Below, piece by piece: positions 39,001 to 45,000 of a stretch of DNA of 64,000 nt. The stretch is from Styela clava (Eukaryota), in assembly GCF_964204865.1 (NCBI RefSeq), contig NC_135255.1:7998001-8062000 (forward strand). The letters run 5' to 3'. The first letter of the stretch is position 1; every line of letters begins with the position of its first letter. Position numbers: made by a program.

Positions 39001-42000
39001 CATAGCTGATTTGGAGAAGAGGAAATGGAATATCTATCCATAGGGTTTTTCTAACAGAAAAATTAAAGAAAACAATTGTATGTGTATTACGGTAATCGTA
39101 ATCATGAATTTGCTTTTATTCACAAGACAAATAATTTAAATAAAAAAATGTGGTGAAAAAATGATATTCAAAAAATTGTTCCGAAAGTTGAAGCAAAATC
39201 TACCATATTTACAGCAAAACTGATTTTGAACAAATCTAAGAATATTAAAAAAAATAGCAATAAATGTCAAACCTCAAAAAGTTCACTAATCTTGTTTTGC
39301 CGCAGATAATTTTGAATTCTTGTTTTAGATGAAGACATCTTACTTATAATTATTCACTACATATAGGCTACACAAAAAACTATAAAAAAAAGCAAAAATA
39401 TTAAGAATCAAAATGGTATAATATATATTCAATTGAAAAATATAATCCATGTGAATTGAAACAAATTATTAGCGAATAAAAGTTGATGAACAGTTCAAAG
39501 ATAATGCTCATTCACGAGTATAGGAAATTGAAGAATATGAAATACAGAGACAAGCTTGCGTTTTTAATAATATAGATTTCTGGAACACAACAAATTCATA
39601 TTATGTATAATGTTGGGAACATCCAGAGCAGGTCTCCCACTTTTAGAATTTGTCGAGTCTTGCGCTCCACCTCAAAAATAAGTATCTAAAAAAAGCTACA
39701 AACAACAGATAGTACGGCAAAAGTATGTTCTATTCAAAAAACATGTGGATGGAACATAAATATCCAAAATGAAGAAATGTAAATATCTAAAACAACGCGG
39801 GCAAGATCAAATCTAACAAATATTTTCACACTGATGTGGTTCTCAAACAGTGGGGCGTAGACAATTTTTTGAGGGGGCGTGGAGCTAATTAAAAATGAAA
39901 ATATTTGTTAGATTTGATCTTGCCCGCGTTTTGCATTGTTGAAATATACAATTCATTTATCAGTATTAACAGTGATGTTCAATTCAAAAATCTACTTCTT
40001 TGACAGGTTTATACAATGTTGATTATGATTTTGCTTTTTCAATAGACAAGGAATGCAAACACCACATTTATAAAACTTTCGACTTACTGTTCATTAGTAA
40101 CACACATAAAGCTTTAAAAATCAGAATCAACCGCTGCCTTTTCAATTTCATAACAACAAAACGAGAAGTGTAAAAAAATTAAAATTTGAATAATAGTACC
40201 CAAGGAACACTTTATAATACAGAAATTCTTTTTTTCATTACTCACAAAAAGATGCAATGACTATTTTAAAATAAATACTTATGAAGAACTATAAATATTG
40301 TTAGTTTAAATATAGTTTAAAATCTACTTTCCAAGTATTATTAAAAATGTTTAAAAAACCTTGTTTTGAAAAATTCAACATTAAAGATATTTAAAAAGGC
40401 TTTTCCTTTAGAATATAGATATTCAAAATTATTGGTTATTCGTAAAATTGATTATTGTTTCAACGAAATCATGAGTTACGTCAAATTTTGAAATTTGATA
40501 TGAAGCTTTTAAGAAATTGGCGTAATTACAAGTTAAAAAATATGTAAAAATAACATAATCTCTTTCCACAAAATATCAAGTATATTTATGAGCTTTCGGT
40601 AGATCATATTCGCTGTTTAATCAAGCCATATCTTGTTTTATCTGAAGAAGTTAGACTATGATCTAACGAAAGCTCATAAATATACTTGATATTTTGTGGA
40701 AAGAGATTATGTTATTCCTATTTATCTTTATAATACTATCTCTGTCACGCATCCATGTGGCAACAGCCACATACGGATCCGGAATAGAAAGTGAACAAGG
40801 GAAAAGGACCTGCAGTTCAATACACAATATTCCACAATTCAATATTCCAAATTTCATCTTAAAATTATTTTAGATATTTTATCTTAAATTCACAAAACTA
40901 TGATTTATGAAGATTCAGTTGTACATAAAAATCAGTTTTATTTAACAGATATCCATTTTATTTCCCTAAATTTCAAATTCAATTAGGTTCCTTTCTTTTG
41001 AACATCTACTGTAGATTTTGAATTATGTAGAATTTATGCTAATCACTCAATAATGAAGGAGAATAATCAATGAGCAAAGTTACGAATCTAGTCTGAAACT
41101 ACAAAAACTACTGAAAATCCAAAATTGATTGTGGTGCGTAACACACCAGCAAGTATGATCATGCTCGCACATGAGACAACTTTACCCCAACAAAATCTTG
41201 AAGAAGAAAACATATTTTACAGTGAACAGGTATCATAAACACAGGGTTGTTTAAATTTGCCATATTCATATTAAAATTACCATATTTTACGAACCATAAG
41301 GTGCAACATTAAAAAATTGCTTAGATTGGGATTTTTTCCATACAAATAGCACATCTGGCTAGAAGACGCAACCGTTTTCAAGAAGTATCGGATTACGGAA
41401 CAAAATTCATTGAACAAAAAAACTCTTTAGGATTATCGTATTTAATTTGAAGAAAACATAAAGTGGTGGTTGGTTTATAAATCAATAGTACCAATACTGA
41501 TTTTAGGTGTAGTTAATGAAGCATAATGCTTATAAGGCGCACAATCAATTTTTTGAAAAAAGGGGTTCGACAAGTGCCTTATGGTCCATTAATAGAGCAA
41601 TTGAGCATGTGAAATTTTTATCATATGAAACATCAACTATATTGTCCATTTTTCTTCTGCATTAAACTTTCTCTGGCTTTAATGAAAGCCAAAATGTTAG
41701 CATCTGTATTACTATCACCAGTTGTCGGTATTTGTGACTCCTTCAAATGTCTTTGTGTCATATTAAAACCAGATCTCTGACTTTTTAAACTCAAACTTGA
41801 GTTATTTAAACTTTGATTTGTAGATTGTCTGCTCACTGAATCTGGCATAGGCAAGTTGAAACCGATTGGTGGAGACGGTTTTGCATATCCAGGCAAACCA
41901 ACGTCACCAATAGGCGACACTCTTTGTAAAGGAGAGAGTGATGTGTTAGATAGAGAACGATTATTGAAATTTTGTTCAAATCTTTGAGGGGATTCAGGCG

Positions 42001-45000
42001 GAGTTCTCCAAGCTTCTGTGGTTTTGATAGGATTTTGTGGTTGTTCAATTCTGTTCAGTCGATGATGACTTGAACTAGATGGCCTTGATCGTCCACTAGG
42101 TGGCCGTTTCGTTTGTTGGTCCCACCAAACATCGAAATCTCTTTGAATTTGAACTCTAGTTCTATCTAACAAATGATGTAAATGATCAATTTCTGCTTTC
42201 ATTGCTTTAAGTTTCATAAATGAGTTTTTGTATTTTAGTTTCGCTTCTTCAATTTGTTGTCTAACAAGTGCTTCTCTCTCATTTTCCTCAAACGAATCGT
42301 CTTTATCGTCGATATTACTACTCATGGTCATTTGAATAGCTCTCTTTTTCTTTCTTTGTTCCAGATCCGCTTTGAGATGATTAATTGCATTTCTAGCGTT
42401 ATTCACTTCCATTCCAAGTATTTTTGCTTCTCCATATCTCTGTTTTAACCGTTCTTTTTGATCCATAATGGCATCGTTTTGTGAATAATTTTGTTTAAAA
42501 ATTTCAAATGCTTCTTGGCGACCTGCAGACATATTAGGTTCTTTGACATGTGATTTTGAATTTATTAATTCTTTTTCGCTGTCTTTTTGATCAGATTCAT
42601 AAGTTGAACTGTTGTATCCAGATGAGGTTTGTAATTCGGAATTAGTATTAGATCTTGGAATATTTTGTGCTTGTGCATCAAGAACTTTTTTTCTTTCTTT
42701 TTTTAACATATTGACTAAAATATTTATTTCAGTATCTCTTTGTTGTAATATTTCTTTCAATCTTTTGATTTCTAATGGACTGAGTTCTTGTTCATCATTA
42801 TTAGATTGATGTTGACTCTGCGTATCCGGTCGAACATTCTCGTCACCATTTTCCTCGATGGCGGAAACTCCTTTTCTGTTCGCATACTTTTTCAACCTTC
42901 CATATGAATATTGAATCTTTCTCATATCACCACCGACATCGAGTGTTGCTTCTAAATCAGTATCGTTTAAATATGAAGCAATTAATTCATCTAAATACTG
43001 AATTTCTTCAGTTGTAAGTTGGTCACTTCGTTGTTCTCCTGTTGTTAAAGCCAACTCATCTTTCAACGACTGAATTTCTTTTTTCAATCTCAGTATCATA
43101 AGCTTGGGATCTAGTTCTTCATTCAATGTTGCTTCGTTTTTGATTAACGCAACACGTTGTGCGAATCGACATGTTGATATTGATTCATCTACGTTCTTTT
43201 TATCCACAGAAACAGTCGCAATCATAGTCGTCATGCAATTTCCACCGAGGCTATCACGAAGGACGGAAGTCATCATTGAATTGCGATATGGAATGTGCTG
43301 CCGATTTTTTTCCGATAATGAAATGATAACTTGCTCTAAAAAATGAAGTGAAAGATTGATATATTTAACTTCAGTGAGAAGTTGGCCTCCAACGTTCGTT
43401 TTAGCAACTCGTTCAGATCCTGCTAAATCAACGAGATGCAGTTTCGATCTTCGAATTGTAGCTGAGCCCGGTTCTCTACTTGTTATATGAATAGTGAAAA
43501 TACAATGAGATCGCGTTGATGCTTGATTCATAGGAGTTTCAGCAATCATTCTATTTGTGTCACCTAAAAATAATAAATTCAAAGCGTCTTCAATATTTTG
43601 AGCTGGCAACATTGATAAGTTTTTGAGGTGAATATTTTGATCAGGATCTTCCATTAAAGCCACTTTAGGCAAATCTTCTAATTTTGCAGCTTCATGTCGG
43701 GGGTCAAGTAAATCATAACCATTTTCATTATAAATTTCTAGATAAGATACTTCCGTTGAATAAATATGGTTCTTATCTTGTTCAAATTTTTCAAAAAGAT
43801 AAGATAAAGATCGGGGAATGATTCCTCTATCTGCAAATTTTTCAGCGCCCCCCGTTATTGTAAAAGTCTTTCCACTTCCTGTCTGCCCATAAGCAAATAT
43901 TGTTCCATTATACCCAGCCAGTACATTATCAGCAACGTCCTTTGCTACATGTTCAAATACATCATCTTGTTTTGCCTGTTGATCAAATATTTTTTCGAAT
44001 GCAAATTTATAATTTTCTCTTTTATTGTTGACAAATCCTTCCAACTGATCTCGCGGAATGACAAATTCAATTGATGATTTAGGAAGAGTCTCATCATCAT
44101 CGATAGAAAATATTCCTGTTCGTGAACGAGTTGGCTTTACCCTGCAGAAGATCTTGATTGTCTGTTTCACCATTTTGTATTATAGACAGATTGTACATTT
44201 ACTCCTTAAATAAAATATGAGGAAATAAAAATGTGGAAAATAATTGAGATATTCTCCACATCCAACATTTTTAAAATCTAATAAATATATAGGCTACCAG
44301 TATGCTTTTCTTTTTTACATTCTATCATCAGTATAAAAAAGCCTAATATTGCCAGATACTTATATTTACTTGACTAAAACATTTCACTGAAAACTATACC
44401 ATATATCAAAGTATATAATAGCAGAAAAGTTTAAAGTCAATCTAGCACTCAAATATTTTCTAGTTTCGTAGAAGTTGGCTATGAAATGCTCGTACTATCA
44501 CATCAATGATTACTCTCCTTCAGCCAACCCTTCGAAAAAGAAATATGTGCAAGAGAATTGCTAAAACCCTCACATTCACTCTTATTATGGACAAAATCCC
44601 AATTTTTCAATACGGAGAAGAATAACAAACGAGAATATTGGACAACTGCTTGCTGTCATTAGCAGTTTCCGTAAGCTCTGATAAGTAACAGTTTCCTCAA
44701 CCTTGAGTCCATTCATTTGAAACGAAAACCTCCCACACATGACATTGTCTACAGTAAACCGGATCTGAGACGTCTTTTTACTCAGAATGAAGATGAAAAT
44801 GACATCTTATCTTTAACGCTCGATCAAGCGCATACAGGTCACAGGTTCATGACATATTCTAAACCAATAGGGACTTATCTCTAGGCTAGAAAAAAATTTC
44901 GGCCAGTTTTGTATTCAAATTAAACAATGGAAGGTAGAATTTGAATCATATGGAATACTATTACATTGTTCTGTTGTTTTATCTGTTGAGAAACTTGTTA

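What the first reader, a model, noticed from the sequence alone, without database searches (positions are those of the whole stretch)
41633..44206. Intronless 2.5-kb KIF6 among intron-rich neighbours: likely retrogene that replaced its parent
Seen: an intact 846-codon single-exon CDS, while the neighbouring genes have coding exons of only ~30-225 bp. A splice acceptor lies 31 nt before the ATG. Known: vertebrate KIF6 is a multi-exon gene. Inference: a retroposed cDNA (or wholesale intron loss) landed here and captured an upstream promoter or leader. The intact ORF and motor motifs argue against a processed pseudogene.
Basis: partly seen in the sequence, partly recalled or inferred. Interest (0 to 1): 0.65.

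Follow-up and report, generated by a model that had tools for sequence, protein, structure and literature searches.

The report
Intronless KIF6 gene in a sea squirt
This is the sea squirt's one detectable, intact copy of the ciliary motor gene KIF6, written as a single uninterrupted exon among neighbours split into many small exons; it is a modest example of a gene that lost all its introns, probably through an RNA copy.

Summary
Window 41633-44173 (minus strand) is one open frame of 846 codons. The next-longest stop-to-stop frame in the 64 kb is 175 codons. It encodes a complete, collinear KIF6 (kinesin-9) with intact motor motifs.

The window is Styela clava. A neighbouring exon matches an NCBI S. 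clava protein that lies on a contig of the same length as the KIF6 contig. Two neighbours are split into small exons: NSE2-like has 6 exons of 111-153 nt, and DNALI1-like has at least 4.

A pyrimidine-rich AAG sits 31 nt before the ATG. Motifs of this kind occur about 1.2 times per kb per strand. In ascidians the simplest reading is a spliced-leader trans-splice acceptor, not a captured leader exon.

KIF6 is the only KIF6 I could detect for this species, and it branches where the species tree predicts, without a long branch.

There is no poly(A) relic, no target-site duplication and no spliced-leader relic. Retroposition with parent loss cannot therefore be separated from in-situ cDNA-mediated intron loss. 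No eukaryotic genomes were searchable, so exon structure and synteny in other tunicates stay untested.

Modest interest: a new member of a known kind.

The parts
41633..44173 (-). KIF6 coding sequence, one exon, 846 codons plus the TGA stop
   Evidence: ORF; best named hits are KIF6, 52-63% identity over 76-100% of the query; collinear from M1 to the conserved C-terminal motif
43148..44032 (-). Kinesin motor domain (Pfam PF00225, residues 48-342). P-loop, switch I and switch II residues lie in invariant alignment columns.
   Evidence: E 2.3e-101; G96-T103, S219-H223 and D249-E254 invariant in 12 of 12 sequences
42101..42523 (-). Kinesin-9 tail domain (Pfam PF23735 'KIF9 domain', residues 551-691)
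   Evidence: E 1.2e-39
44174..44204 (-). 31-nt leader between the acceptor-like AG and the ATG. It holds an upstream ATG at 44198 (weak context, out of frame, 33-codon uORF that overlaps the start) and an in-frame TAA.
44205..44227 (-). Acceptor-like motif: pyrimidine-rich tract (16 of 20) ending in AAG. Candidate spliced-leader trans-splice acceptor (inferred). The tract is part of a 14-nt tandem duplication at 44208-44239.
   Evidence: 1.23 such motifs per kb per strand by chance
41441..41446 (-). First candidate poly(A) signal (ATTAAA), 186 nt after the stop. AATAAA follows at 40962 and 40942. No A-rich tract follows any of them.
   Evidence: at most 13 A in any 20-nt window within 1.5 kb downstream
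44228..47961 (.). Head-to-head spacer between the KIF6 acceptor-like motif and the NSE2-like start codon; 3.8 kb separate the two start codons. Presumed site of the KIF6 promoter and outron (inferred, not shown).
47962..48087 (+). First coding exon of the divergent neighbour, the NSE2-like E3 SUMO ligase. Context only; it identifies the species.
   Evidence: 100% identity to residues 1-42 of P0241, Styela clava

Best explanation
This is the working KIF6 (kinesin-9, ciliary motor) gene of the ascidian Styela clava and the only copy detectable. Its coding region lost every intron at once through a reverse-transcribed mRNA. My preferred route, by a small margin, is retroposition: a retrocopy inserted head-to-head, 3.8 kb from the NSE2-like gene, became expressed and took over, and the spliced parent was lost (an 'orphan retrogene'). 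The event is old, because every insertion scar has decayed. It probably predates the split from the species that carries P0002 (73% identical protein). The AG 31 nt before the ATG is most simply the site where the ascidian spliced leader is trans-spliced on, discarding an outron transcribed from the spacer shared with NSE2. It is not the acceptor of a captured leader exon. Shown: the intronless intact ORF, KIF6 orthology, small-exon neighbours, the motif, and the absence of scars. Inferred: the RNA intermediate, the relocation, the loss of the parent, trans-splicing and promoter position.
For: One 846-codon exon, against 6 exons of 111-153 nt in NSE2 and at least 4 in DNALI1. Full-length conservation: identity to P0002 is 312/345 in the motor, 123/200 in the stalk, 108/146 in the kinesin-9 tail domain and 57/142 in the C-terminal region; all catalytic motifs are invariant. 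In the tree the window protein plus P0002 (100/100) is sister to Phallusia+Clavelina+Ciona. Tunicates are monophyletic (100/100) and sister to vertebrates. The end branch is 0.29 against a median of 0.28, which is one-to-one orthology without a rate burst. No second KIF6 turned up. Among the 120 best of 8000 scored proteins of 465-1481 aa, and the 120 best of 30-464 aa, none is named Styela apart from the window's own hidden entry, although NCBI S. clava proteins are in that database (P0241). No short hit exceeds 84% identity. There is no KIF6-like fragment elsewhere in the window (tblastn, E up to 10, none). Relatives appear to have introns (model discrepancies; isoforms). Precedent in the same lineage: an intronless SPS2-Sec retrogene arose at the root of Styelidae+Pyuridae and took over from the parental isoform (PMC4561486, passages). 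For trans-splicing: 9850 of 12397 non-operon Ciona genes carry trans-splice acceptors (PMC11155486).
Against: No hallmark of retroposition survives. There is no A-rich tract after any candidate poly(A) signal. There is no convincing target-site duplication. The only direct-repeat pairs that flank the gene among the 20 families shown of 47 (D10, 17 of 23 nt; D20, 14 of 16 nt) are AT-rich and imperfect, lie in opposite order on the two sides, and sit about 920-960 nt beyond the stop. The Ciona spliced-leader sequence is not upstream of the leader: 87 of 2064 AAG-ending sites in the window match it as well or better, and the window has 4 hits at up to 3 mismatches against 3.76 expected. The S. 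clava leader itself is unknown to me. If the acceptor is real and ancestral, that fits in-situ intron loss better than insertion at a new site. A 3.8-kb spacer is long for a shared bidirectional promoter (recalled rule of thumb). The acceptor is an AAG, the leader carries an upstream ATG, and such motifs are frequent here. Exon structure and gene order in other tunicates were not examined at all. The absence of a second copy rests on annotated and predicted proteins, not on a genome search.
Confidence: 0.42

Rival explanations
1. In-situ intron loss. The ancestral multi-exon KIF6 stayed where it was, and a full-length reverse-transcribed mRNA recombined with it and erased all coding introns. 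Promoter, outron and trans-splice acceptor are the original ones.
For: It explains without further events why there is an acceptor-like site just upstream of the ATG, why no poly(A) tract or target-site duplication exists, why there is exactly one copy, and why the protein shows no rate acceleration. Reverse transcription plus recombination is the mechanism discussed for tunicate intron loss (PMC4122922, passage on Oikopleura).
Against: Loss of every coding intron of a 2.5-kb CDS in one conversion is unusual in animals (recalled, not tested). The scars of a retroposition would also have decayed over the divergence seen here, so their absence does not discriminate. The acceptor is not proven.
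Confidence: 0.33
2. Ancient state: KIF6 was already intron-poor or intronless in the tunicate (or stolidobranch) ancestor, so nothing special happened in this species.
For: Single-exon genes are common in Ciona: 15% of non-operon genes and 38% of operon genes (PMC2760879). The closest relative, P0002, is known only as a protein on a 2834-nt contig that could be intronless DNA or a transcript.
Against: Ciona intestinalis and C. savignyi gene models show block differences typical of exon boundaries. Vertebrate KIF6 entries have multiple isoforms and are multi-exon (recalled). S. clava is reported to have fewer intronless genes than Ciona (PMC7540406). An event at the stolidobranch root would still be an intron-loss event, only an older one.
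Confidence: 0.1
3. Extra retrocopy: a spliced parental KIF6 still exists elsewhere in the S. clava genome and this locus is a second, functional copy.
For: The genome itself could not be searched. Small exons would escape the protein collections.
Against: No other Styela-named KIF6 is among the best 120 full-length or the best 120 short hits, although S. clava NCBI proteins are in the database. The window copy has the slow, orthologue-like branch.
Confidence: 0.07
4. KIF6 is the single-exon first gene of a Ciona-type operon with the minus-strand gene downstream (30.8-37.9 kb).
For: In Ciona, 60% of operons have a single-exon first gene (PMC2760879). The next candidate gene lies on the same strand.
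Against: 3.7 kb separate the KIF6 stop from the first candidate exon, whereas Ciona operons are defined by gaps under 100 bp and usually have no intercistronic DNA (PMC1488885; PMC11155486). The UTRs are unknown.
Confidence: 0.05

Closest known systems
KIF6 (kinesin-9 family) of other chordates, e.g. Ciona intestinalis, Clavelina lepadiformis, Phallusia mammillata and vertebrates
   Same: Same domain order (N-terminal motor, coiled-coil stalk, PF23735 tail domain, conserved C-terminal motif). 60-63% identity to named tunicate KIF6 proteins and 52-62% to vertebrate ones over nearly the full length.
   Different: Here the CDS is a single exon. Relatives appear to be multi-exon (indirect evidence; the vertebrate structure is recalled).
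KIF9 (the other kinesin-9; nearest solved structures 9ijj_c, 7n61_0X, 3nwn_A)
   Same: Motor domain and PF23735 tail family. These are the best PDB matches: 325, 320 and 268 bits.
   Different: It matches over the motor and neck only (query 5-412), at about a third of the bit score of KIF6 orthologues (892-1273 bits). It is a paralogue, not the orthologue.
Intronless SPS2-Sec retrogene of Styelidae and Pyuridae (Mariotti et al. 2015, PMC4561486)
   Same: Same ascidian lineage as S. clava. It is an intronless copy that took over the function of a spliced parental form (passages read).
   Different: There the parent survives with the ancestral introns at another locus, so retroposition is demonstrated. 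Here no parent is seen and relocation is unproven.
'Orphan' retrogenes that replaced their parents (PMC3548309; placental SPS2 in PMC4561486)
   Same: An intronless sole copy of a gene that is spliced in outgroups.
   Different: Only the search listing and the start of the abstract of PMC3548309 were seen. Those cases rest on synteny, which is not available here.
Single-exon genes of Ciona (Satou et al. 2008, PMC2760879)
   Same: An ascidian protein-coding gene with one exon and a homologue elsewhere. Probably SL trans-spliced.
   Different: Those are enriched as first genes of operons. This gene shows no tight operon partner (a 3.7-kb gap). It is also long (846 aa) against a mean of 389 for the sea-squirt intronless set of PMC3155783, which prints that figure as 'bp' although it was derived from protein sequences, so I read it as residues.

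Membership tests
Kinesin-9 / KIF6 | Kinesin motor domain with P-loop, switch I and switch II | tested here: met
   PF00225 E 2.3e-101. G96-T103, S219-H223 and D249-E254 are invariant in 12 of 12 aligned KIF6 proteins.
Kinesin-9 / KIF6 | Motor at the N-terminus, followed by a stalk and the kinesin-9 tail domain | tested here: met
   Motor at residues 48-342 and PF23735 at residues 551-691.
Kinesin-9 / KIF6 | Orthology to KIF6 rather than KIF9 | tested here: met
   Every specifically named hit among the best 120 is KIF6 and none is KIF9 (892-1273 bits). Solved KIF9 proteins score 268-325 bits over the motor only. The protein is nested in the tunicate KIF6 clade. No KIF9 outgroup was put in the tree.
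Functional (orphan) retrogene | No introns where the parent or orthologues have them | tested here: inconclusive
   The intronless CDS is shown. Introns in relatives are only inferred from gene-model discrepancies and isoforms. No eukaryotic genome could be read.
Functional (orphan) retrogene | Poly(A) tract relic after the 3' UTR | tested here: not met
   At most 13 A in any 20-nt window within 1.5 kb downstream, and none next to a poly(A) signal.
Functional (orphan) retrogene | Flanking target-site duplication | tested here: not met
   Only imperfect AT-rich pairs (D10 17/23, D20 14/16), in opposite order on the two sides and far from any 3' end. By my own estimate this is chance level.
Functional (orphan) retrogene | New genomic location relative to orthologues; parent absent or decayed at the old location | not testable with these tools
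   The only open genome collection holds bacteria and archaea. No KIF6 relic is in the window.
Functional (orphan) retrogene | Intact and constrained, not a processed pseudogene | tested here: met
   No stop or frameshift in 846 codons. 73% identity to P0002 over 818 columns. Ordinary branch length. dN/dS was not computable, because no relative's DNA was available.
SL trans-spliced ascidian gene | Unpaired splice acceptor upstream of the start codon | tested here: inconclusive
   The motif is present at 44206-44205, but it is of the AAG type and such motifs occur 1.23 times per kb per strand. Whether a donor pairs with it is unknown.
SL trans-spliced ascidian gene | Spliced leader on the mature mRNA | not testable with these tools
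   No transcript data.
Ciona-type operon | Same-strand neighbour within about 100 bp, with no intercistronic DNA | tested here: inconclusive
   The nearest same-strand candidate exon is 3.7 kb downstream. The upstream neighbour is divergent. UTR ends are unknown.

The most novel reading that the evidence does not exclude
KIF6 of Styela clava is an orphan retrogene born from a trans-spliced mRNA in the same early stolidobranch period that produced the intronless SPS2-Sec retrogene. It landed head-to-head with NSE2, borrowed that gene's promoter region, re-evolved a trans-splice acceptor from a small tandem duplication (44208-44239), and displaced a parent that had many introns. That would point to a lineage-wide burst of retrogene replacement in Styelidae and Pyuridae that reshaped even large ciliary genes.
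Probability: 0.12. Interest if true: 0.5.

Novelty: new member of a known kind. Interest (0 to 1): 0.3.

Why it matters
If relocation and parent loss were confirmed, this would be a large (2.5 kb) and clean case of a retrogene replacing an essential ciliary motor gene in the sister group of vertebrates. It would be a second such case in the Styelidae/Pyuridae lineage after SPS2. It could help date retroposition activity in ascidians and show how a retrocopy acquires a promoter and a trans-splice acceptor. If the loss was in situ, it is a rare animal example of complete cDNA-mediated intron erasure. Either way the protein itself is an ordinary KIF6. The result bears on gene-structure evolution, not on a new function.

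Tried and rejected
1. Spliced-leader relic. If a trans-spliced mRNA had been retroposed, the leader should sit directly 5' of position 44204. I used the Ciona leader as printed in PMC1488885 (Table 1) and PMC7986045. The site scores no better than 87 of 2064 AAG-ending sites. The window has 4 matches at up to 3 mismatches against 3.76 expected, none near KIF6. The best match (5109-5124, minus strand) has no SL-RNA-like continuation. The S. clava leader is not in the papers I could search, so this test is weak.
2. Target-site duplications and a poly(A) relic: none found.
3. Parental relics in the window: tblastn of the protein against the window with the ORF masked found nothing at E up to 10.
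4. A split or second copy among short proteins: nothing above 84% identity and nothing from tunicates among the 120 listed.
5. Rfam, whole window, gathering thresholds: 0 matches.
6. Whole-frame translations sent to Pfam to find neighbour exons were rejected because of stop codons. I then sent single open pieces.
7. Neighbour exons against the PDB: no usable hit.
8. The protein Atlas would not read new sequences.
9. Literature. 'KIF6' with 'Ciona' returned 0 papers. 'KIF6', 'tunicate', 'ascidian', 'intronless' (at least 2 terms) listed 10 papers, and none of them contains KIF6. 'retrogene', 'ascidian', 'intronless' gave nothing on this gene.
10. Considered and rejected. A processed pseudogene does not fit an intact, conserved ORF. 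Contamination or horizontal transfer does not fit the tree, which places the protein inside tunicates. An N-terminal coding exon upstream is excluded by the in-frame TAA in the leader, and the orthologues start at the same Met.
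Full report
WHAT IS THERE. On the minus strand, 41633-44173 is a single open reading frame of 846 codons from ATG to TGA. Read from stop to stop it is 848 codons. The next-longest of the 28 stop-to-stop frames of at least 90 aa in all six frames of the window is 175 aa. With the window's composition (GC 0.334, about 0.074 stops per random codon), such a frame has a chance of about 5e-29 per start. The window has no N and no soft-masking.

Pfam finds a kinesin motor domain (residues 48-342, E 2.3e-101), the kinesin-9 tail domain PF23735 (551-691, E 1.2e-39) and the overlapping microtubule-binding model.

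WHICH GENE AND WHICH ORGANISM. Of 8000 scored candidates, the 120 best are listed. The first is the window's own protein. Every hit with a specific name is KIF6. The closest are:
- an unnamed protein, P0002 (70%)
- Phallusia mammillata (63%)
- Clavelina lepadiformis (62%)
- Ciona intestinalis (60%)

Solved KIF9 proteins match only the motor and neck, at 268-325 bits, against 892-1273 bits for the KIF6 hits.

In a 12-sequence alignment the window protein is collinear from M1 (all 12 begin M-V-K-Q) to the conserved C-terminal motif. The P-loop, switch I and switch II residues are invariant. Identity to P0002 is 312/345 in the motor, 123/200 in the stalk, 108/146 in the tail domain and 57/142 in the C-terminal region.

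I built a maximum-likelihood tree of 17 KIF6 proteins: 6 tunicate rows, 6 vertebrates, 2 hemichordates, 1 partial amphioxus and 2 oysters as outgroup. Lingula and the second Ciona model were left out. The tree puts window+P0002 (100/100) as sister to Phallusia+Clavelina+Ciona. Tunicates are monophyletic (100/100) and sister to vertebrates. The window's end branch is 0.29 against a median of 0.28. This is a one-to-one orthologue without a rate burst.

An exon of the neighbouring gene matches 'E3 SUMO-protein ligase NSE2-like [Styela clava]' (P0241). That protein sits on a contig of 24,297,679 nt, the same length as the contig recorded for the KIF6 protein. Four of its six exon matches are 100% identical to the window and the other two are 95-97.5%. 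I therefore take the window to be Styela clava, a stolidobranch ascidian. It is not human.

SURROUNDINGS. Neighbour exons were searched one at a time.

- Upstream neighbour. The NSE2-like gene lies on the plus strand, head-to-head with KIF6. It has six coding exons at 47962-48087, 50176-50328, about 51475-51594, about 52160-52279, 52505-52615 and 52753-52869, each 111-153 nt (rows under 80% identity were dropped before printing). 3.8 kb separate the two start codons.
- DNALI1-like gene. An axonemal dynein light-intermediate-chain gene lies on the plus strand at 25.2-27.4 kb. It is in at least four pieces that cover PF10211 positions 2-26, a second stretch, 68-128 and 129-182.
- Nuclear receptor. 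A nuclear-receptor DNA-binding exon lies at 2979-3251 on the minus strand and stops at profile position 30 of 70.
- Downstream neighbour. On the KIF6 strand, candidate exons between 30.8 and 37.9 kb stand out in a crude codon-usage score trained on KIF6. Two of them give weak, collinear matches to DUF5586: E 0.0013 at profile 66-97 and E 0.032 at profile 251-289, both under the family cut-off.

THE 5' END. An AG at 44206-44205, preceded by 16 pyrimidines in 20 nt, lies exactly 31 nt before the ATG.

Several points limit what this motif shows:
- By the same simple rule there are 79 such sites on each strand of the window (1.23 per kb per strand), and a second one lies at -356.
- The site is an AAG, whereas the five internal NSE2 acceptors read CAG three times and TAG twice (read by eye).
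- The tract is part of a 14-nt tandem duplication.
- The leader holds an upstream ATG at 44198 in weak context. It opens a 33-codon out-of-frame uORF that overlaps the start.
- The main ATG has A at -3 and G at +4.

The leader also has an in-frame TAA, so no coding exon can be spliced on here.

In ascidians a lone acceptor shortly before the start codon is normal. In Ciona a 16-nt spliced leader is trans-spliced to roughly half or more of genes. 9850 of 12397 non-operon genes have trans-splice acceptor sites, mostly at the first functional acceptor (PMC11155486, PMC7986045 and PMC1488885; passages read). I therefore read the motif as a candidate trans-splice acceptor, not as evidence for a captured leader exon. 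Neither reading is shown.

RETROGENE OR IN-SITU LOSS? I looked for the scars of retroposition and found none.
- Poly(A) relic. Candidate poly(A) signals lie 186, 670 and 690 nt after the stop, but no A-rich tract follows them. The maximum is 13 A in any 20-nt window within 1.5 kb.
- Target-site duplication. Of 47 direct-repeat families, 20 were shown. Only two pairs flank the gene (17 of 23 nt and 14 of 16 nt). They are AT-rich and imperfect, lie in opposite order on the two sides, and sit about 920-960 nt past the stop. By my own estimate this is chance level.
- Spliced-leader relic. A retrocopy of a trans-spliced mRNA should carry the leader itself in front of position 44204. With the Ciona leader as printed in the papers, the site ranks with 87 of 2064 AAG-ending sites, and the window as a whole has 4 near-matches against 3.76 expected. 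The S. clava leader was not available, so this test is weak.
- Parental relics. No KIF6 relic lies elsewhere in the window.
- A second copy. Neither the full-length nor the short-protein search lists another Styela KIF6, or any fragment above 84% identity, although NCBI S. clava proteins are in that collection.

That relatives have introns is supported only indirectly. The two Ciona intestinalis models and the C. savignyi model differ by block insertions, deletions and alternative ends, and many vertebrate entries have several isoforms. That vertebrate KIF6 has many exons is recalled, not tested.

No eukaryotic genome collection was available. Exon structure, synteny and a genome-wide paralogue search therefore remain undone.

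BACKGROUND FROM PAPERS (passages read unless stated).
- Single-exon genes make up 15% of non-operon genes and 38% of operon genes in Ciona, and 60% of operons have a single-exon first gene (PMC2760879).
- A 2009 annotation of Ciona had 1448 intronless genes (PMC3155783).
- S. clava is said to have fewer intronless genes than Ciona. The numbers are in supplements that I could not open (PMC7540406).
- In Styelidae and Pyuridae an intronless SPS2-Sec retrogene took over from a spliced parental isoform (PMC4561486).
- Retrogenes that replaced their parents are described in human (PMC3548309; listing and start of the abstract only).
- No paper in the library holds both 'KIF6' and 'Ciona'. None of the 10 papers listed for KIF6, tunicate, ascidian, intronless contains KIF6.

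VERDICT. The gene is an ordinary, intact KIF6 orthologue whose coding region has no introns. The loss of all introns at once points to a reverse-transcribed mRNA.

My estimates for how it happened:

| Explanation | Probability |
|---|---|
| Old retrocopy that replaced its parent | about 0.42 |
| In-situ cDNA conversion | about 0.33 |
| Ancestral intron-poor state | about 0.10 |
| Parent still present elsewhere in the genome | about 0.07 |
| Operon first gene (not exclusive of the others) | about 0.05 |

The lean towards a retrocopy rests on the completeness of the intron loss and on the SPS2 precedent in the same lineage.

The function (recalled, not tested) is that of a kinesin-9 motor linked to motile cilia. 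A ciliary dynein light-chain gene, DNALI1, lies about 14 kb from the KIF6 stop codon, and this may be coincidence.

The finding is a modest, checkable case of a known kind of gene-structure change. A genome-wide tblastn and a synteny comparison across ascidians would settle it.

Noticed in passing
window 25217-27416 (+): An axonemal dynein light intermediate chain (DNALI1/p28-like, PF10211) gene in at least four small exons lies about 14 kb from the KIF6 stop codon. Both are motile-cilium genes, and the proximity may be chance.
   Followed up: partly
window 47962-52869 (+): An NSE2-like E3 SUMO ligase gene with six coding exons of 111-153 nt lies head-to-head with KIF6. It matches the Styela clava protein P0241 at 95-100% (100% for four of the six exons), which identifies the species.
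   Followed up: yes
window 2979-3251 (-): An exon encoding the first half of a nuclear-receptor C4 zinc finger (PF00105, profile 2-30 of 70, E 3e-11). The rest of the gene was not traced.
   Followed up: partly
window 30833-37889 (-): A row of Ser/Pro/Lys-rich candidate exons lies downstream of KIF6 on the same strand. Two of them give weak, collinear matches to DUF5586 (E 0.0013 and 0.032, under the cut-off). The gene's identity is unresolved.
   Followed up: partly
window 44208-44239: A 14-nt unit repeated 2.2 times forms the pyrimidine tract directly in front of the acceptor-like AG, so the motif may have arisen by a small tandem duplication.
   Followed up: no
window 47243-47635 (both strands): Overlapping open frames of 104 and 97 aa lie on opposite strands in the KIF6-NSE2 spacer. 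Neither has a Pfam match. This may be a repeat or chance.
   Followed up: partly
window 41092-41235 (+): A 48-aa open frame antisense to the KIF6 3' flank has a high codon-usage score (15.6) and no Pfam match.
   Followed up: partly
window 5109-5124 (-): The best match in the window to the Ciona spliced leader (13 of 16 nt). The sequence after it shows no SL-RNA-like continuation, and the number of such matches is at chance level.
   Followed up: yes
window 40583-40684: The same 16-mer seems to occur on both strands about 70-100 nt apart (an inverted repeat, seen when comparing), about 1 kb past the KIF6 stop. It may be a small inverted-repeat element.
   Followed up: no
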